The notes beneath the pieces are model-generated. The model searched no databases and was not told the DNA's origin. It worked only from the letters and a program-made list of their open reading frames with translations. Shown piece by piece: positions 1-8,861 of a stretch of DNA of 8,873 nucleotides. The position numbers were made by a program, and so were the translations under genes. The number at the start of each line of letters is the position of its first letter. Position 1 is the first letter of the stretch. The DNA is from a virus. Taxonomy: Duplodnaviria > Heunggongvirae > Uroviricota > Caudoviricetes. Location of the stretch: IMG/VR virus record IMGVR_UViG_2663763220_000006; one strand, written 5' to 3'.

Positions 1-42
1 CAGATGGCTGCTTAAAAAAAGAACAAATGGTAGTGTCCGCTA

Positions 43-366
43 TTGCCAGTACACCTCAAACTACTCATTGCCAGATGGGAACTGACCGCAGAACAGGCTG
101 TCGCACAGCAGTTAAAAAATCAGGTGTCAAAAGGAAATCTTATCGATACCGGATTTTGTATTTTTGCCCTTAGTAAGCTGGCGATGGCTTTATCCAGTAC
201 GCTTGACTCCATTCCTTTGTCCATGCAACGACAGTTCCCGGATTTAACGCCGCGTCATATTGATCATCTGAAAATCCTTATTGCTAAGGGAGCGAATCAG
301 TGCGCGCGTGCGGGGGATAAATTACCGGATTTACTCGATGAATATATCAGAACAACAACTGAGTAA
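43..366 (+). CDS. Nu1: Terminase small subunit (lambda Nu1-like), C-terminal ~107 codons only; upstream reading frame closed by in-frame stops at 13-15 and 31-33
   Basis: Translation (…RWELTAEQAVAQQLKNQVSKGNLIDTGFCIFALSKLAMALSSTLDSIPLSMQRQFPDLTPRHIDHLK…LLDEYI…) aligns with the recalled C-terminal half of lambda Nu1 (…RHRLTRAQADAQELKN…TAFCTFVLSRIAGEIASILDGLPLSVQRRFPELENRHVDFLK…LLSEYIEQSG). The stop at 364-366 overlaps the start of the downstream gpA-like gene, as in lambda. The first in-frame start is a TTG at 43; there is no convincing N-terminal region in any frame within the window. Confidence 0.7.
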   Translation: MPVHLKLLIARWELTAEQAVAQQLKNQVSKGNLIDTGFCIFALSKLAMALSSTLDSIPLSMQRQFPDLTPRHIDHLKILIAKGANQCARAGDKLPDLLDEYIRTTTE

Positions 367-2248
367 TATGATGGTGGCAGTCACTATCGCACTGCAGCCA
401 CTGGTCAGGGTATTGCCGGTGACGGCTGTAGAATGGGCCGATCAAAATTATTACCTGCCTAAAGAATCGTCATACGGTGAGGGGGAATGGAAAACGCTGC
501 AGTTTCAGGTCGCCATCATGAACTGCATGGGCAATGACGAGATTCGTACAGTTAACCTGATTAAATCTGCCCGTGTTGGTTATACAAAAATGGTGCTTGG
601 TGTGATCGGGTATTTTATTGAGCACAAATCCCGCAACACTCTTCTTTTTCAGCCGACGGACTCAGCTGCTGAAGATTTTATGAAGTCTCACGTGGAAGCA
701 ACAATTCGTGATGTTCCTTGCCTGAAAAAACTTTCTCCCTGGCTGGGCCGGAAACACCGGGATAATACGCTCACACTGAAGCGTTTTTCCTCTGGTGTGG
801 GGTTCTGGTGTTTGGGTGGTGCTGCTGCCAAAAACTACCGTGAAAAATCTGTCGATGTGGTCTGCTATGACGAACTCTCCTCGTTTGAACCGGATGTGGA
901 AAAAGAAGGTTCGCCAACACTGCTTGGCGATAAACGTATTGAAGGTTCGGTATGGCCAAAATCCATACGCGGTTCAACGCCAAAAATTAAAGGCTCCTGT
1001 CAGATTGAAAAAGCTGCGAATGAATCTGCGCATTTCATGCGGTTTTATGTCCCTTGCCCTCATTGCGGGGAGGAGCAGTATCTGAAGTTTGGCGATGATG
1101 CGACGTCGTTTGGCCTGAAATGGGAGAAGGGTAAACCGGAAACGGTGTATTACCTGTGTGAACATAATGGCTGCGTGATCCGTCAGTCTGAACTTGATCA
1201 GACCGGGGGGCGCTGGATTTGTGACAATACCGGGATGTGGACGTGTGACGGTCTGACGTTTTTCAGTGCTTCGGGTAATGAAATTCCGCCGCCGCGCTCC
1301 ATCACTTTCCATATATGGACGGCGTACAGTCCGTTCACCACCAGGGTACAGATAGTCTGTGACTGGCTGGATGCACTGAAAGATCCCAACGGCGTGAAAA
1401 CTTTTGTGAACACCACGCTGGGTGAGACCTGGGAAGAGGCCGTGGGCGAAAAACTCGATCACCAGGTACTGATGGATAAGGTTGTGCCTTACACGGCAAC
1501 GGTGCCTGTCCGGGTGGTTTATCTGACGGCGGGCATTGACTCGCAGCGAAACCGTTTTGAGATGTATGTCTGGGGGTGGGCTCCGGGAGAGGAAGCCTTT
1601 CTGGTGGATAAAATCATCATCATGGGACGTCCTGATGAGGAAGAGACGCTGTTACGTGTGGATGCGGCGATCAATAAAAAATACCGCCATGCAGACGGTA
1701 CCGAAATGACCATTTCCCGTGTCTGCTGGGATATCGGGGGGATCGATGGCGAAATCGTGTATCAGAGGTCAAAAAAACACGGTATTTTCCGGGTACTGCC
1801 GGTAAAAGGTGCCTCTGTCTATGGCAAGCCGGTGATCACCATGCCGAAAACCCGCAATCAGCGGGGTGTGTATCTGTGTGAGGTGGGGACGGATACCGCA
1901 AAAGAAATTCTCTATGCCCGAATGAAGGCCGATCCCACCCCTGTGAATGAGGCCACATCGTATGCCATCCGCTTTCCTGATAATCCGGAGATTTTTTCGC
2001 AGACAGAGGCACAACAACTGGTGGCGGAGGAACTGGTGGAAAAGTGGGAAAAAGGAAAGATGCGTCTGTTGTGGGATAACAAAAAGCGGCGTAACGAAGC
2101 GCTGGACTGCCTGGTGTATGCCTATGCGGCATTACGTGTGTCCGTGCAACGCTGGCAACTTGATCTGGCTGTGCAGTTGCATCCCGCAAGGATGCAACTG
2201 CACAACCGACCCTTGAAGAACTGGCAGCGAAGCTGTCCGGAGGAGTGA
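338..2248 (+). CDS. A: Terminase large subunit (lambda gpA-like; ATPase/translocase plus nuclease)
   Basis: ATG at 338 gives MNISEQQLSN…, matching the recalled lambda gpA N-terminus MNISNSQVN…. Long conserved blocks follow (TAVEWADxNYYLPKES, FWCLGG-AAKNYREKSVDV-YDEL, GDKRIEGSVWPKSIRGSTPK, CPHCGEEQYLKFGD, FVNTTLGETWE, YLTAGIDSQ, KKRRNEALDC). Length ~636 aa versus 641 in lambda. The start overlaps the Nu1-like stop. The C-terminal ~25 residues diverge (see finding). Confidence 0.93.
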   Translation: MNISEQQLSNMMVAVTIALQPLVRVLPVTAVEWADQNYYLPKESSYGEGEWKTLQFQVAIMNCMGNDEIRTVNLIKSARVGYTKMVLGVIGYFIEHKSRNTLLFQPTDSAAEDFMKSHVEATIRDVPCLKKLSPWLGRKHRDNTLTLKRFSSGVGFWCLGGAAAKNYREKSVDVVCYDELSSFEPDVEKEGSPTLLGDKRIEGSVWPKSIRGSTPKIKGSCQIEKAANESAHFMRFYVPCPHCGEEQYLKFGDDATSFGLKWEKGKPETVYYLCEHNGCVIRQSELDQTGGRWICDNTGMWTCDGLTFFSASGNEIPPPRSITFHIWTAYSPFTTRVQIVCDWLDALKDPNGVKTFVNTTLGETWEEAVGEKLDHQVLMDKVVPYTATVPVRVVYLTAGIDSQRNRFEMYVWGWAPGEEAFLVDKIIIMGRPDEEETLLRVDAAINKKYRHADGTEMTISRVCWDIGGIDGEIVYQRSKKHGIFRVLPVKGASVYGKPVITMPKTRNQRGVYLCEVGTDTAKEILYARMKADPTPVNEATSYAIRFPDNPEIFSQTEAQQLVAEELVEKWEKGKMRLLWDNKKRRNEALDCLVYAYAALRVSVQRWQLDLAVQLHPARMQLHNRPLKNWQRSCPEE

Positions 2249-2452
2249 ATGGTTACAGTCGCTGAACTGCAGGCGCTGCGTCAGGCGCGCCTTGATTTAT
2301 TAACCGGTAAACGGGTTGTGTCGGTACAGAAAGACGGTCGCAGGATCGAATATACGGCAGCGTCCCTGAATGAGCTTAACCGTGCGATCAACGATGCGGA
2401 GTCGGTTCTGGGTACGACCCGACGCCGCCGACCGCTGGGAGTGAGGTTATGA
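2249..2452 (+). CDS. W: Head-tail joining / head completion protein (lambda gpW-like)
   Basis: 67-aa product MVTVAELQALRQARLDLLTGKRVVSVQKDGRRIEYTAASLNEL… matches recalled lambda gpW (…[27 protein letters not shown]…). GGAGG Shine-Dalgarno at 2238-2242. The stop overlaps the portal ATG (ATGA). Confidence 0.88.
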   Translation: MVTVAELQALRQARLDLLTGKRVVSVQKDGRRIEYTAASLNELNRAINDAESVLGTTRRRRPLGVRL

Positions 2453-4042
2453 AACGAACGCCTGTCCTGATTGATGTGAACGGCGTTCCGCTTCGTGAGA
2501 GTCTCAGCTACAACGGAGGCGGCGCAGGATTTGGCGGGCAAATGGCAGAGTGGTTACCACCGGCGCAGAGTGCCGATGCGGCCCTGTTGCCTGCATTGCG
2601 TCTGGGGAATGCCCGGGCAGATGATCTGGTGCGCAATAACGGTATCGCGGCTAATGCGGTGGCCCTGCATAAGGATCATATCGTCGGGCACATGTTTCTT
2701 ATCAGCTACCGTCTGAACTGGCGTTGGCTGGGGATGCGGGAGACCACGGCAAAAAGTTTTGTCGGGGAGGTGGAAGCAGCCTGGTCGGAATACGCAGAAG
2801 GAATGTTTGGCGAGATCGACGTGGAAGGGAAACGCACGTTTACGGAATTTATCCGTGAAGGGGTGGGCGTGCATGCCTTTAACGGCGAAATCTTTGTGCA
2901 GCCGGTCTGGGATACGGAAACCACGCAGTTATTCCGTACGCGTTTTAAAGCCGTGAGTCCGAAACGGGTGGACACGCCAGGACACGGTATGGGGAACCAC
3001 TTTCTGCGGGCCGGGGTTGAGGTCGATCGGTATGGGCGGGCGATTGCGTACCATATCTGTGAGGATGATTTTCCGTTCTCTGGTGCCGGACGCTGGGAGC
3101 GGATCCCGCGTGAGCTTCCCACCGGGCGTCCGGCCATGCTGCATATTTTTGAGCCGGTGGAGGACGGGCAGACCCGTGGGGCTAATCAGTTTTACAGCGT
3201 AATGGAGCGGATGAAGATGCTGGACTCCCTGCAGGCCACGCAGCTTCAGTCGGCCATTGTGAAGGCGATGTATGCAGCCACAATCGAAAGTGAACTTGAT
3301 ACCGAAAAGGCATTTGAATATATCGCGGGGGCACCGCAAGGTCAGCAGGATAATCCGCTTATTAATATTCTGGAGAAGTTCACCCGCTGGTATGACACGA
3401 ATAACGTGACGCTGGGCGGTGTTAAAATTCCGCACCTTTTTTCCTGGCGATGCGCTGAACCTGCAGACAGCGCAGGATTCAGACAATGGATTTTCGGCGC
3501 TTGAACAGGCGCTGCTGCGGTATATTGCAGCCGGTCTTGGCGTTTCCTACGAACAGTTGTCCCGTGATTACTCGAAGGTCAGTTACTCAAGTGCCCGCGC
3601 CTCCGCCAATGAGTCGTGGCGCTATTTTATGGGGCGGCGAAAATTTATTGCGGCCCGGCTGGCCACGCAGATGTTTTCCTGCTGGCTGGAAGAGGCGCTT
3701 CTTCGGGGGATTATTCGTCCGCCACGGGCGCGTTTTGATTTTTACCAGGCGCGTTCAGCCTGGTCACGGGCAGAGTGGATTAGCTCCGGAAGAATGGCCA
3801 TTGACGGGCTCAAGGAGGTCCAGGAATCGGTGATGCGCATTGAGGCCGGACTGAGCACGTATGAGAAAGAACTGGCACTGATGGGCGAAGATTATCAGGA
3901 CATTTTCCGCCAGCAGGTCAGGGAATCCGCAGAGCGCGAAAAAGCCGGACTCTCACGTCCGGTGTGGATAGCCCAGGCGTATCAGCAGCAGATAGCGGAG
4001 AGTCGCAGGCCGGAAGAGGAGACAACATCACGTGAGACGTAA
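2449..4042 (+). pseudogene. B: Portal protein (lambda gpB-like) disrupted by a +1 frameshift at a T6 run (3437-3442); N-terminal part 2449..3504 and C-terminal part in the other frame to 4042
   Basis: The frame starting at 2449 matches recalled lambda gpB through …LGGVKIPHL (lambda …LGGAKVPHL), then reads 21 unrelated codons and stops at 3504. Similarity resumes in another frame immediately after the T-run (FFPGDALNLQTAQDSDNGFSALEQALLRYIAAGLGVSYEQLSR… versus lambda MPGDSLNLQTAQDTDNGYSVFEQSLLRYIAAGLGVSYEQLSR…) and continues to the stop at 4040-4042. The two parts total ~530 aa, close to lambda gpB at 533. Confidence 0.8.
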
Positions 4043-5595
4043 TCTTTCACATATTATCGCTGCGGCATTCAATGAGCCGCTGCTTCTGGAGCCCGCCTAT
4101 GCGCGGGTTTTCTTTTGCGCGCTCGGGCGTGAGATGGGCGCAGCAAGCCTTTCGGTACCGCAACAGCAGGTACAGCTTGACGCTCCCGGGATGCTGGCTG
4201 AAACGGACGAGTACATGGCCGGAGGCAAACGACCTGCCCGTGTTTACCGGGTGGTGAACGGTATTGCTGTACTGCCGGTGACCGGCACGCTGGTACACCG
4301 GCTGGGTGGCATGCGGCCATTTTCCGGAATGACTGGCTATGACGGCATTGTCGCCTGTCTTCAGCAGGCAATGGCGGACACTCAGGTACGGGGCGTACTG
4401 CTGGACATTGACAGTTCTGGCGGGCAGGCCACCGGCGCGTTTGACTGCGCTGACATGATTTACCGTCTCCGGCAGCTGAAGCCTGTCTGGGCACTGTGCA
4501 ATGACACGGCCTGTTCAGCCGCCATGTTACTGGCATCGGCCTGCTCCCGACGGCTGGTTACCCAGACATCCCGTATCGGCTCCATTGGGGTGATGATGGG
4601 CCATGTCAGCTATGCCGGTCATCTGGCACAGGCCGGTGTGGATATCACGCTGATTTACGCCGGATCGCACAAGGTGGATGGCAATCAGTTTGAATCCCTG
4701 CCAGCAAAGGTTCGCCAGGACATGCAGCAGCGCATTGATGCGGCGCGCCGGATGTTTGCTGAAAAAGTGGCGATGTATACCGGTTTATCTGTGGATGCGG
4801 TTATGGGAACAGAGGCCGCCGTTTTTGAAGGTCAGTCCGGTATTGAGGCCGAACTGGCGGATGAATTAATCAATGCGTCGGACGCCATCAGCGTGATGGC
4901 TGCGACGCTGAACACACACGATACAGGAGGCACTATGCCGCAATTAACTGCAACGGAGGCTGCCGCGCAGGAGAACCAGCGAGTGATGGGGATCCTGACG
5001 TGTCAGGAAGCGAAAGGACGTGAACAACTGGCCACGATGCTGGCAGGGCAACAGGGTATGAGCGTTGAGCAGGCCCGGGCGATTCTGGCCGTGGCGGCAC
5101 CGCAACAATCTGGTGTATCTGCGCAGAGTGAAGCCGATCGCATTATGGCATGTGAAGAGGCGAAAGGACGTGAACAACTGGCGGCAACGCTGGCGGCGAT
5201 GCCGGAGATGACGGTGGAAAAAGCCCGTCCGATTCTGGCTGCTTCACCGCAGGCGAATGCCGGACCCTCACTTCGTGATCAGATTATGGCCCTGGATGAG
5301 GCAAAAGGGGCAGAGGCGCAGGCTGAAAAACTGGCGGCCTGTCCGGGGATGACCGTGGAGAATGCCCGGGCTGTACTGGCGGGGGGCCCCGGNNNNNNNN
5401 NNNNNNNNNNNNNNNNNNNNNNNNNNNNNNNNNNNNNNNNNNNNNNNNNNNNNNNNNNNNNNNNNNNNNNNNNNNNNNNNNNNNNNNNNNNNNNNNNNNN
5501 NNNNNNNNNNNNNNNNNNNNNNNNNNNNNNNTGGCGTGCCACAGACGTCAGCAGACGGTGATGCGGACGTGAAAATGCTCATGGCCATGCCATGA
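4032..5595 (+). CDS. C: Prohead protease / minor capsid protein (lambda gpC-like, ClpP/S49-type fold) with C-terminal scaffold domain; interrupted by the assembly gap 5393-5531, so the 3' end and true length are uncertain
   Basis: Product …AAFNEPLLLEPAYARVFFCAL…NGIAVLPVTGTLV…SGMTGYDGI…GAFDCADMI…KPVWALCND…RRLVTQTSRIGSIGVMM…TLIYAGSHKVDGN…AYTGLSV…TEAAV… matches recalled lambda gpC nearly motif for motif. The only in-frame start after the upstream stop is a GTG at 4032, overlapping the portal stop. After the N gap the lambda-like C-terminus (…SADGDADVKMLMAMP, compare lambda …SDAVNDLLNTPV) is in a different frame and ends at 5593-5595; the continuing frame would stop at 5561. Confidence 0.8.
4935..5595 (+). 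CDS. Nu3: Nu3-like scaffolding protein, nested in-frame within the 3' third of the gpC-like gene (internal translation start)
   Basis: In-frame ATG at 4935 preceded by AGGAGG at 4925-4930 (4-nt spacer). The downstream sequence (…NQRVMGILTCQEAKGRE…) corresponds to the recalled lambda Nu3 region (…NSRIMGILNCEEAHGRE…). Lambda expresses Nu3 from an internal in-frame start in C. Exact start not verifiable; the 3' end is affected by the gap. Confidence 0.4.
4980..5392 (+). repeat. At least three degenerate tandem repeats (~138-150 nt, ~46-50 aa each) within the scaffold-coding region, abutting the assembly gap
   Basis: Identical 22-mer gcgaaaggacgtgaacaactgg at 5010-5031 and 5160-5181 (150-nt period). 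Protein-level units: MGILTCQEAKGREQLATMLAGQQGMSVEQARAILAVAAPQQ / IMACEEAKGREQLAATLAAMPEMTVEKARPILAASPQA / IMALDEAKGAEAQAEKLAACPGMTVENARAVLAGGP. The third unit runs directly into the Ns. Confidence 0.75.
5393..5531. other. Assembly gap (139 N)
   Basis: Uninterrupted run of n characters; the length is not a multiple of 3 and the coding frame differs on the two sides, so the gap size is probably an estimate or placeholder. Confidence 0.98.
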
Positions 5596-7514: not shown

Positions 7515-7892
7515 GTGGACGGTTTCGATAATCTGTTTGATGCTGCGCTTGCCGGTGTCAATGAAGTCATTCTCCGTGATATGGGGATCAGCGCCGTCAT
7601 TACGTCCGGAGAACTTGAGGGGACACACCTGACAGGGGTTTTTGATGATCCCGAAAGTATTTCTTTTGTTGCCGGGGGGATCCGGCTTGAGGATTCCTCA
7701 CCGTGCCTGTTTGTGAAAACGGCAGATATATCGCAGTTACGCCGTCAGGATACGTTAACTATCGGGGATGATTCTTTCTTTGTGGATCGTATTACTCCGG
7801 ATGACGGGGGATGCTGTTATATCCGGTTAAGGCGGGGCAGTCCTGCCCCACAGAATAATGCCAGAATGAGGCGATATGATGAAGGGACTTGA
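7515..7892 (+). CDS. FII: Head-tail joining protein FII (lambda gpFII-like)
   Basis: GTG start at 7515 with AGGAG at 7505-7509. Product (M)DGFDNLFDAA…GVFDDPESISF…LRRQDTLTIGDDSFFVDRITPDDGG… matches recalled lambda FII MADFDNLFDAA…GVFDDPENISY…LRRGDTLTIGEENFWVDRVSPDDGG…. Confidence 0.88.
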   Translation: MDGFDNLFDAALAGVNEVILRDMGISAVITSGELEGTHLTGVFDDPESISFVAGGIRLEDSSPCLFVKTADISQLRRQDTLTIGDDSFFVDRITPDDGGCCYIRLRRGSPAPQNNARMRRYDEGT

Positions 7893-8463
7893 GAATGCCA
7901 TCCGCAATCTGAACAGCCTCGATACCCGCATGGTGCCACAGACCAGCGCATGGGCGGTAAACCGTGTGGCGGCAAAGATTGTTTCTGTCGCCACACGGCA
8001 GGTTGCGCAGAATACCGTTGCCGGGGATAACCAGGTGAAAGGTATTCCCCTGAAAACGGTCAGGGAGCGTGTCAGGCTGCTTAAAGCCAGCCCCTCAGGA
8101 AAAATGTATGCCCGCATGCGTGTTAACCGGGGTAACCTGCCCGCCATTAAGCTGGGTACCGCACAGGTCAGACTGGCCCGCTCCCGGCATGGCAGCAACT
8201 CACGTCATCGTGGCAGCGTACTGAAAGTGGGGAAATACCTTTTCCGGGATGCGTTTATTCAGCAACTGGCGAATGGTCGCTGGCATGTGATGCGGCGTAT
8301 TGACGGCAAAAATCGTTACCCCATTGATGTGGTGAAAATCCCGATGTCCGGACCGCTGACACAGGCATTTGAAGATGCCCGCGACCGCATCATTGCTGCG
8401 GAAATGCCGAAACAGCTGGGGTATGCCCTGAAACAACAACTGAGGTTACATCTGAGTAAATGA
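7876..8463 (+). CDS. Z: Tail assembly / tail completion protein Z (lambda gpZ-like)
   Basis: Product MMKGLENAIRNL…VNRVA…AFIQQLANGRWHVMRRIDGKNRYPIDVVKIPM…LGYALKQQLR… matches recalled lambda gpZ (MAIKGLEQAVENL…INRVA…AFIQQLKNGRWHVMQRVAGKNRYPIDVVKIPM…LGYALQHQLR…). GAGG at 7868-7871. Start could be the ATG at 7876 or at 7879. Overlaps the FII 3' end by 17 nt. Confidence 0.88.
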   Translation: MMKGLENAIRNLNSLDTRMVPQTSAWAVNRVAAKIVSVATRQVAQNTVAGDNQVKGIPLKTVRERVRLLKASPSGKMYARMRVNRGNLPAIKLGTAQVRLARSRHGSNSRHRGSVLKVGKYLFRDAFIQQLANGRWHVMRRIDGKNRYPIDVVKIPMSGPLTQAFEDARDRIIAAEMPKQLGYALKQQLRLHLSK

Positions 8464-8861
8464 ACCGACACACACAAATCCGTCAGAGCGTGCTGGCACG
8501 CCTTCGGGAACAGTGTGGAGACAGCGCCACGTTTTTTGACGGGCTTCCGGCATTTATTGATGCGCAGGAACTGCCCGCCGTGGCGGTGTGGCTGAGTGAT
8601 GCGCAGTACACCGGAAAAATGACGGATGAGGACGACTGGCAGGCTGTTCTGCATATTGCCGTTTTCGTCCGTGCACAGGCGCCGGATTCTGAGCTGGATA
8701 CGTGGATGGAGAACACCATATTTCCGGCCATGAAGGATATTCCGGTGCTTTCCGGACTCATCGACACCATGATCCCACTCGGTTTTAACTATCAACGTGA
8801 TAATGAGATGGCCACCTGGGCGATGGCGGAAATCACGTACCAGATCACGTACACGAATTAA
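8460..8861 (+). CDS. U: Tail terminator protein U (lambda gpU-like)
   Basis: 133-aa product with …ATFFDG-PA…PAVAV-L…YTG…W…LHI-VF…AQ-PDSELD-WME… matching recalled lambda gpU (…ATFFDGRPAVFDEADFPAVAVYLTGAEYTG…LHIEVFLPAQVPDSELDAWMES…). The ATG overlaps the Z stop (ATGA). Confidence 0.88.
   Translation: MNRHTQIRQSVLARLREQCGDSATFFDGLPAFIDAQELPAVAVWLSDAQYTGKMTDEDDWQAVLHIAVFVRAQAPDSELDTWMENTIFPAMKDIPVLSGLIDTMIPLGFNYQRDNEMATWAMAEITYQITYTN

What the first reader, a model, noticed from the sequence alone, without database searches (positions are those of the whole stretch)
1..120. Small terminase gene lacks its N-terminal DNA-binding half; in-frame stops at the window edge
Similarity to lambda Nu1 begins only around position ~70 (RWELTAEQAVAQQLKN). 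In that frame there are stop codons at 13-15 (taa) and 31-33 (tag), and no other frame in 1-70 shows Nu1-like sequence. The region also contains an A7 homopolymer (14-20). Either the Nu1-like gene is truncated or frameshifted here (a defective prophage, or another homopolymer error), or a recombination junction lies at ~40-70 with a different upstream module. The N-terminal domain of Nu1 is the cosB-binding part, so its loss would abolish packaging specificity.
Basis: partly seen in the sequence, partly recalled or inferred. Interest (0 to 1): 0.45.

Follow-up and report, generated by a model that had tools for sequence, protein, structure and literature searches.

The report
IS600-bounded deletion truncating prophage small terminase
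The small-terminase gene at the window edge really has lost its DNA-binding half, because an IS600 insertion sequence sits next to a 2.5-kb deletion in a decaying Shigella flexneri lambdoid prophage, which is an ordinary kind of prophage decay.

Summary
The frame-1 stops (TAA 13-15, TAG 31-33) and the A7 run (14-20) are there, and lambda-Nu1 similarity starts at nt 73.

Window 1-58 is the last 58 nt of IS600, an IS3-family insertion sequence. TAA 13-15 is the IS600 transposase stop codon. The A7 run is native IS600 sequence.

From nt 59 the window is nu1 codons 68-169, 99.9% identical in DNA to an intact 169-aa gene in E. coli FDAARGOS_943.

The same junction occurs in 12 Shigella flexneri-type assemblies, including 2457T. 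In the ten with upstream sequence, the complete 1264-bp IS600 is flanked on its left by the lysis gene Rz, cut at codon 134. It has no 3-bp target duplication (GGG versus AAC), whereas two control copies have one.

Against a colinear intact E. coli prophage (RMDEC364), 2542 bp are missing. They hold the Rz/Rz1 3' ends, a ParDE-like pair, a KilA-N gene, the cos site and nu1 codons 1-67.

No N-terminal Nu1 coding remains within 10 kb. A conserved 40-mer from the lost part is absent from a collection that holds two complete genomes carrying the junction.

The large-terminase and portal genes are also frameshifted.

Verdict: a known kind of IS-driven prophage decay, not a sequencing error. Interest is low.

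The parts
1..58 (+). Right (3') end of IS600, an IS3-family insertion sequence. It holds the last four transposase codons, the stop TAA at 13-15, the native A7 run at 14-20, and the imperfect right inverted repeat (about 30-58) ending ...ACACCTCA.
   Evidence: Megablast hits lie under 'IS3-like element IS600 family transposase' in thousands of E. coli records. The alignment with two independent IS600 copies is identical through window 58-59 (through ...ACACCTCAA) and diverges from window 60. In the source genome the full element is 1264 bp (L010 8458-9721), with TGAGGT... and ...ACCTCA ends, and is 99.4% identical to the E. coli copies.
58..59 (.). Junction between the IS600 end and nu1 nt 202 (codon 68). 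The position is ambiguous by one A.
   Evidence: The right flank is AAC and the left flank in the source genome is GGG, so there is no 3-bp target duplication. Control copies have AGC/AGC and AAT/AAT.
59..366 (+). nu1 remnant: codons 68-169 of a 169-aa lambda-type small terminase, plus the stop at 364-366. This is the self-assembly and TerL-binding half only. It has no native start codon.
   Evidence: Pfam PF07471 Phage_Nu1, profile positions 85-163 of 164, E 5.6e-19. DNA is 99.9% identical to the intact FDAARGOS_943 gene from nt 58. tblastn covers residues 68-169 at 99%.
43..366 (+). Mechanical 107-aa ORF that starts at a TTG inside the IS600 inverted repeat. Several Shigella assemblies call it as a gene. 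It is probably not a real translation unit.
   Evidence: ORF list. Called at L008, L009, L011 and L012 9706-10029 and L014 177-500 (107 aa), and as a shorter 94-aa ORF at L013 308-592, with a PF07471 hit. No promoter-like site in 1-500. No Shine-Dalgarno-like sequence is visible upstream of 43.
338..2248 (+). Large terminase gene (gpA type). A -1 frameshift at about 2175 replaces the last 30 residues with 24 unrelated ones, giving 636 aa instead of 642.
   Evidence: Pfam GpA_ATPase and GpA_nuclease. Indel and C-terminal comparison with three intact relatives.
2449..4042 (+). Portal gene split into two ORFs (2449-3504 and 3419-4042) by T6 at 3437-3442, where intact relatives have T5.
   Evidence: The same split is called in S. 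flexneri 2457T and other finished genomes, so it is a real mutation and not a read error.

Best explanation
The window starts 58 nt before the right end of an IS600 copy inside a lambdoid prophage of Shigella flexneri. IS600 lies in the same orientation as the phage late operon. It is bordered on the left by the lysis gene Rz, cut after codon 134, and on the right by nu1 codon 68. The roughly 2.5 kb that separate these two points in intact relatives are gone. That interval held the Rz/Rz1 3' ends, accessory genes, the cos site, and the nu1 promoter-proximal region with its start codon and codons 1-67, which encode the winged-helix DNA-binding domain. The IS copy has no target-site duplication. 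So the lesion is not a simple insertion. It is an IS600-associated deletion, arising either by an adjacent deletion from one inserted copy or by recombination between two directly oriented copies, one in Rz and one in nu1. The remaining nu1 piece is a pseudogene without a start codon. With cos and the TerS DNA-binding domain lost, the prophage cannot recognise or cut its own DNA for packaging. Shown here: the identities, junctions, missing interval, absence of duplication and conservation across strains. Inferred: which of the two deletion routes occurred, and the functional consequences.
For: 1. Window 1-58 is the IS600 end. TAA 13-15 is the transposase stop: the CDS ends at L010 9678, which is window 15.
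2. nu1 homology starts at 58/59 against intact 169-aa genes, at 99.9% identity in FDAARGOS_943 and 98.8% in RMDEC364.
3. Source loci L005-L012 (S. flexneri, including 2457T AE014073.1) show the gene order holin, endolysin, Rz/Rz1, IS600, nu1 remnant, terL. IS600 occupies 8458-9721 with flanks ...GACGGG and AACTAC....
4. Control IS600 copies carry 3-bp duplications, AGC and AAT. This copy carries none.
5. In E. coli RMDEC364 both flanks are colinear, at 99.2% and 97.4% identity, with 2542 bp between them (L015 1858-4399). That interval contains the Rz 3' end, ParD/ParE-like genes, a KilA-N gene, two small ORFs, a cos-like site (ACGGGGCGGGAGCGGCGCAGAATTTCACTATTTATGAAAATTTT, compare lambda cosN) and nu1 nt 1-201.
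6. blastn with the deleted interval finds nothing in 11 Shigella-type sequences apart from an unrelated Rz fragment. tblastn with four Nu1 types finds no N-terminal coding in any of 13 Shigella-type sequences.
7. A 40-mer from the lost nu1 part, invariant in three relatives, has zero matches in the species-representative genome collection. That collection contains two complete genomes with this exact junction.
8. No protein of the form expected for an N-terminal fragment running into IS600 was among the 18 hits to Nu1 residues 1-67, and no named hit is from Shigella (several hits carry no source name).
9. The lost part maps to the lambda Nu1 DNA-binding region through PHROG 57 and PDB 1J9I/6HN7.
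10. Other lesions in the same module are the terL C-terminal frameshift and the portal frameshift.
11. IS600 is one of five insertion sequences that have expanded in all Shigella species and contribute to gene loss there (PMC7373316).
Against: The whole source genome could not be searched. Absence of the lost segment elsewhere rests on 10-kb flanks and on one exact 40-mer taken from relatives. The size and content of the lost interval are inferred from relatives whose accessory genes differ: FDAARGOS_943 has other genes between Rz and nu1. The last base before IS600 (G) differs from the relative (A), so the left breakpoint is uncertain by one nucleotide. The structural check of the lost domain was not significant. 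A single-sequence AlphaFold model had pLDDT 74, and the best Foldseek hits were MerR-type winged-helix proteins at E of at least 0.12. No expression or packaging data exist here.
Confidence: 0.9

Rival explanations
1. IS600-mediated inversion or translocation. The IS copy is a recombinant between two distant copies, and the missing Rz 3' end, cos and nu1 5' segment survives elsewhere in the chromosome.
For: The IS copy has no target duplication. Shigella genomes carry hundreds of IS insertions (PMC7373316). The left side of this prophage is arranged differently in different strains.
Against: Both flanks are colinear and in the same orientation as in the intact relatives, only 2.5 kb apart. The 40-mer from the lost nu1 part is absent from a collection that holds two complete genomes with the junction. 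No hit named as from Shigella appeared in the protein search.
Confidence: 0.05
2. Simple IS600 insertion into an otherwise intact nu1. The N-terminal half and cos would lie just beyond the IS, 1.26 kb upstream of the window.
For: From the window alone this is the default expectation for an IS end abutting a gene fragment.
Against: In every source locus the sequence left of IS600 is Rz codon 134, not nu1. There is no 3-bp duplication. No Nu1 N-terminal coding lies within 10 kb.
Confidence: 0.01
3. Sequencing or assembly artefact. A homopolymer error in the A7 run, or a misjoin at a contig edge, would break an intact nu1.
For: The window comes from a draft-quality assembly. It holds a run of 139 N at 5393-5531 with poor-looking sequence beside it.
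Against: The A7 run is identical in unrelated IS600 copies. Window 1-5382 matches the finished 2457T genome with one mismatch and no gaps. The junction is present in 12 independent assemblies.
Confidence: 0.01
4. Mosaic phage recombination. A different but functional N-terminal or small-terminase module lies upstream, or the N-terminus is intact but too divergent to recognise.
For: The nu1 N-terminal module is variable. E. coli TB4328 has another N-terminal type joined near the same position. Intact relatives' N-termini show no BLASTP or Pfam similarity to lambda Nu1.
Against: The upstream sequence is IS600, with two in-frame stops and no phage coding. Beyond the IS come lysis genes directly.
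Confidence: 0.01

Closest known systems
IS600 (IS3 family) insertions and IS-bounded deletions in Shigella genomes
   Same: The element is 1264 bp with TG...CA ends and imperfect inverted repeats. It has HTH_Tnp_1 plus rve ORFs with a programmed frameshift, and is 99.4% identical to annotated IS600 copies. It interrupts and deletes genes, as described for Shigella genome degradation (PMC7373316).
   Different: This copy lacks the 3-bp target duplication seen at the control copies. It therefore marks a deletion or recombination, not a plain insertion.
Lambda gpNu1 / phage 21 gp1 small terminase (Pfam PF07471)
   Same: Residues 73-167 of the intact relative are 44% identical to lambda Nu1 86-180. 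The gene overlaps the start of the gpA-type large terminase gene as in lambda.
   Different: Only the C-terminal 102 codons remain here. In intact relatives the N-terminal domain belongs to a different sequence type from lambda's, detected only by PHROG 57 and PHROG 7289. The cohesive-end region also differs from lambda's GGGCGGCGACCT.
Intact lambdoid prophages of E. coli RMDEC364 and FDAARGOS_943, and phage PhiR12_1
   Same: Same late-region gene order. Identity to the window is 97-99.9% for the two E. coli prophages and 89% for phage PhiR12_1.
   Different: They keep cos, the full 169-aa nu1, a 642-aa terL and an undivided portal gene.

Membership tests
IS600 (IS3 family insertion sequence) | Near-identity to reference IS600 copies over the full length of about 1264 bp | tested here: met
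   Window 1-58 is identical to the 3' end of annotated copies. The full element in the source genome is 1264 bp and 99.4% identical to two E. coli copies.
IS600 (IS3 family insertion sequence) | Terminal imperfect inverted repeats with TG...CA ends | tested here: met
   The left end is TGAGGTAGCC...GGACACT. The reverse complement of the right end is TGAGGTGTAC...GGACACT.
IS600 (IS3 family insertion sequence) | orfA (HTH) and orfB (DDE rve) joined by a programmed -1 frameshift | tested here: met
   Pfam HTH_Tnp_1, HTH_21, rve and rve_3 on the called genes. RefSeq notes 'programmed frameshift'. NCBIfam IS3 transposase hits orfA below its cut-off.
IS600 (IS3 family insertion sequence) | 3-bp direct target duplication flanking a simple insertion | tested here: not met
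   The flanks here are GGG and AAC. Control copies have AGC/AGC and AAT/AAT. This fails for 'simple insertion', not for the identity of the element.
Functional lambda-type small terminase (Nu1, PF07471) | C-terminal oligomerisation and TerL-binding region | tested here: met
   PF07471 profile positions 85-163, E 5.6e-19. 45% identity to lambda Nu1 86-180.
Functional lambda-type small terminase (Nu1, PF07471) | N-terminal winged-helix DNA-binding domain | tested here: not met
   Codons 1-67 are absent in every frame of the window and within 10 kb in the source genomes.
Functional lambda-type small terminase (Nu1, PF07471) | Native start codon and translation signals | tested here: not met
   The only upstream in-frame start is a TTG at 43 inside the IS600 repeat. 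It follows stops at 13-15 and 31-33. No promoter-like site was found.
Packaging-competent cos-type lambdoid prophage | cos site about 200 bp upstream of the small terminase gene | tested here: not met
   cos-like sequence is present in relatives at about L015 3970-4010, L002 2570-2610 and L001 2605. It is absent from all Shigella loci.
Packaging-competent cos-type lambdoid prophage | Intact large terminase and portal genes | tested here: not met
   terL has a -1 frameshift at about 2175. The portal gene has a +1 T at 3437-3442.

The most novel reading that the evidence does not exclude
The nu1 domain boundary (nt about 201-219, codons 67-74, 'EEKLLIAR') may be a recurrent breakpoint for prophage-inactivating rearrangements. 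The Shigella IS600 junction is at nt 201/202. Three independent E. coli remnants have large deletions starting at nt about 211, 214 and 219, joined to J or to the D/E region. One has a microhomology deletion starting in the same codons. The mosaic boundary between alternative N-terminal DNA-binding modules also lies here. If real, this would point to a recombination-prone site where packaging specificity is exchanged or destroyed. It may equally be detection bias, because the query covered only residues 1-67.
Probability: 0.12. Interest if true: 0.4.

Novelty: already known. Interest (0 to 1): 0.1.

Why it matters
It matters little beyond annotation. It shows that this S. flexneri lambdoid prophage is a packaging-dead remnant. 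It has no cos, no TerS DNA-binding domain, a damaged TerL C-terminus and a split portal gene. The 107-aa 'Phage_Nu1' ORF called in several assemblies should be treated as a pseudogene fragment fused to an IS end. It is one more documented case of IS-driven genome decay in Shigella. It is also a reminder that stops and a homopolymer at a gene edge can be the native end of an insertion sequence rather than sequencing errors.

Tried and rejected
- PDB sequence search with the intact relative's Nu1 found nothing. Lambda Nu1 was used instead to define the solved N-terminal domain.
- Pfam and NCBIfam gave nothing significant for the N-terminal 70 residues of the intact relative: only a sub-threshold Sigma70_r3 hit at E 0.048. 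Only PHROGs linked them to small terminases.
- The single-sequence AlphaFold model of an N-terminal fragment (P0007) had moderate confidence. Foldseek against the PDB gave no significant hit, although the top hits were MerR-like winged-helix proteins and excisionases. This is treated as suggestive only.
- The protein search with Nu1 residues 1-67 returned only 18 short fragments and no full-length proteins, so it cannot serve as an unbiased census.
- Neither the phage, the plasmid nor the complete-E. coli collection holds the IS600-nu1 junction. It was found only through exact-protein and exact-pattern look-ups.
- The Rz fragment on the opposite strand in L008/L009 was considered as the 'missing half'. 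It was rejected: it is only 92% identical and is a separate, longer Rz/Rz1 copy.

Full report
**Observation.** Frame 1 of window 1-120 reads QMAA*KKNKW*CPLLPVHLKLLIARWELTAEQAVAQQLKN. TAA lies at 13-15, TAG at 31-33 and an A7 run at 14-20. The other two forward frames hold nothing Nu1-like. BLASTP and tblastn similarity to lambda Nu1 begins at window nt 73, where lambda R86 aligns.

**What window 1-58 is.** Megablast of the window edge against phage and E. coli collections splits at nt 58.
- Positions 58 onward match terminase small- and large-subunit genes.
- Positions 1 to about 60 match a repeat present up to 43 times per genome, lying under 'IS3-like element IS600 family transposase'.
- Aligned with two independent IS600 copies, an E. 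coli chromosomal one and one in an Stx2a phage, the window is identical through ...GTACACCTCAA (window 59). The three sequences diverge from window 60; the IS end is placed at 58 from the 1264-bp length and the TG...CA ends.
- The A7 run and both stop codons are therefore native IS600 sequence.
- TAA 13-15 is the transposase stop. The CDS ends at L010 9678, which equals window 15.

**What follows the junction.** From nt 59 the window is nu1 from codon 68.
- Intact relatives carry a 169-aa gene: E. coli FDAARGOS_943 (99.9% DNA identity over window 58-1200), RMDEC364 (98.8%) and phage PhiR12_1 (89%).
- The remnant hits Pfam Phage_Nu1 only at profile positions 85-163.
- tblastn with four Nu1 types finds residues 68-169 only.

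**Source and upstream context.** An exact-protein look-up with the window's large terminase returned ten loci from Shigella flexneri assemblies, including 2457T (AE014073.1). All contain the window's first 200 nt. Two further complete genomes carry the junction 42-mer.
- In the eight loci with 10-kb flanks (L005-L012) the gene order is antiterminator Q, holin, endolysin, Rz/Rz1, IS600, nu1 remnant, terL, W, portal and onward.
- In 2457T the IS600 is 1264 bp (L010 8458-9721), with TGAGGT... and ...ACCTCA ends.
- Its left neighbour is Rz codon 134. The IS's own TGA supplies the stop, so Rz loses 21 residues and Rz1 loses its last few.
- The 3 bp flanking the IS are GGG on the left and AAC on the right. 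Two control IS600 copies have perfect 3-bp duplications, AGC and AAT.
- This is therefore not a simple insertion.

**What is missing.** In E. coli RMDEC364 both flanks lie colinear in one prophage. The left flank is 99.2% identical and the right 97.4%. Between them are 2542 bp (L015 1858-4399). That interval holds:
- the Rz 3' end;
- a ParD/ParE-like pair, a KilA-N gene and two small ORFs;
- a cos-like site about 200 bp upstream of nu1 (ACGGGGCGGGAGCGGCGCAGAATTTCACTATTTATGAAAATTTT, compare lambda ACGGGGCGGCGACCTCGCGGGTTTTCGCTATTTATGAAAATTTT);
- nu1 nt 1-201.

The accessory genes vary between relatives, so the exact ancestral content is inferred.

**Deletion or rearrangement.**
- Apart from an unrelated, 92%-identical Rz fragment, none of the interval occurs within 10 kb in any Shigella locus.
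- A 40-mer from the lost nu1 part, invariant in three relatives, has no exact match in the species-representative genome collection. That collection contains two complete genomes with this junction.
- A protein search with Nu1 residues 1-67 found only short fragments; those that carry a source name are labelled E. coli. None has the form expected for a fragment reading into IS600.

The parsimonious reading is a deletion bounded by IS600. It arose either as an adjacent deletion from one copy or by recombination between two directly oriented copies. The data do not decide between these two routes.

**What the lost part does.** Intact relatives' residues 1-67 show no BLASTP or Pfam similarity to lambda Nu1. 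They do match PHROG 57 ('terminase small subunit') at profile positions 12-86 (E 1.4e-11). Lambda Nu1 1-85 matches the same region, 11-91 (E 4e-31). Lambda residues 1-68 are the solved N-terminal fragment 1J9I. From established knowledge, this is the winged-helix cosB-binding domain. A single-sequence AlphaFold model (pLDDT 74) gave only non-significant Foldseek hits. Nearly all of the top hits were MerR-type winged-helix proteins and excisionases. I treat that as suggestive.

The target site, cos, is lost as well. The remnant has no native start. The 107-aa ORF from TTG 43 starts inside the IS repeat, and no promoter-like site was found.

**Further decay.** In the window and in finished S. 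flexneri genomes alike:
- terL carries a -1 frameshift at about 2175, which replaces its last 30 residues;
- the portal gene is split by T6, where relatives have T5, at 3437-3442.

These are real mutations, not read errors. IS600 is one of five insertion sequences that have expanded in all Shigella species and contribute to gene loss there (PMC7373316).

**Comparison and novelty.** The element meets the IS600 criteria except for the target duplication. The nu1 piece fails the criteria for a functional small terminase. The prophage fails those for a packaging-competent cos phage. IS-bounded deletion in a cryptic Shigella prophage is a well-known kind of event, and this junction has sat in public genomes since the 2457T sequence. 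Interest is low.

**Side observation.** N-terminal Nu1 fragments in several E. coli remnants end at nt about 211-219. There they join J or the D/E region, or show a microhomology deletion. A mosaic boundary between alternative N-terminal modules lies at the same place. This may be a breakpoint hot spot or a search bias, and I could not test it without bias.

Noticed in passing
window 5393-5531: There is a run of 139 N, an assembly gap, inside the 3' part of the S49 peptidase/scaffold gene. Odd sequence (GGCGGGGGGCCCCGG) lies just before it. The window therefore comes from a scaffolded draft, and the mechanical ORF 4032-5561 reads through the gap.
   Followed up: yes
window ~2175 (terL 338-2248): A -1 frameshift lies within a short divergent patch (GTGC-AGTTGCATCC versus GTGCTGGCGGCATCC). 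The last 30 TerL residues are replaced by 24 others, and the usual overlap with gene W is lost. The same change is present in finished S. flexneri genomes.
   Followed up: partly
window 3437-3442 (portal 2449-3504 + 3419-4042): T6 stands where intact relatives have T5, which splits the portal gene into two ORFs. The same split is called in 2457T and other finished genomes, so it is a true mutation.
   Followed up: yes
L019 4001-4273, L022 4001-4270, L024 4001-4300; P0001-P0005: Independent E. coli prophage remnants keep only the Nu1 N-terminal module. It breaks at nu1 nt about 211, 214 and 219 and joins directly to J or to the D/E region. P0001 is an in-frame KLLIA/KILIA microhomology deletion. 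All lie within 20 bp of the Shigella IS600 junction. This may be a hot spot or a search bias.
   Followed up: partly
L025 1318-1797 (E. coli TB4328), compared with L001 and L015: The nu1 N-terminal DNA-binding module is mosaic. TB4328 has a different N-terminal type, and DNA similarity to the window's type begins near the 'EEKLLIAR' codons. The cohesive-end region of the RMDEC364 and FDAARGOS_943 prophages also differs from lambda's GGGCGGCGACCT.
   Followed up: partly
L015 2065-2599: The intact E. coli relative carries a ParD-like/ParE-family toxin-antitoxin pair and a KilA-N gene between Rz and cos. FDAARGOS_943 has other genes there (DUF4406 and hypotheticals), so this is a variable accessory-gene slot.
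   Followed up: no
L005 4432-5853; L012 about 7526-8828; L016 and L017: Some S. flexneri strains have a group II intron-type reverse transcriptase (RVT_1 plus GIIM) between Q and the holin gene. Others have a second IS inserted inside this IS600 copy. The left side of the prophage is arranged differently between strains.
   Followed up: no
PHROG 1790 (114 aa) and PHROG 7289 (91 aa): Separate PHROG families exist for the C-terminal and N-terminal halves of this Nu1 type. This suggests that split or truncated copies are common in the phage and prophage genomes used to build PHROGs.
   Followed up: no
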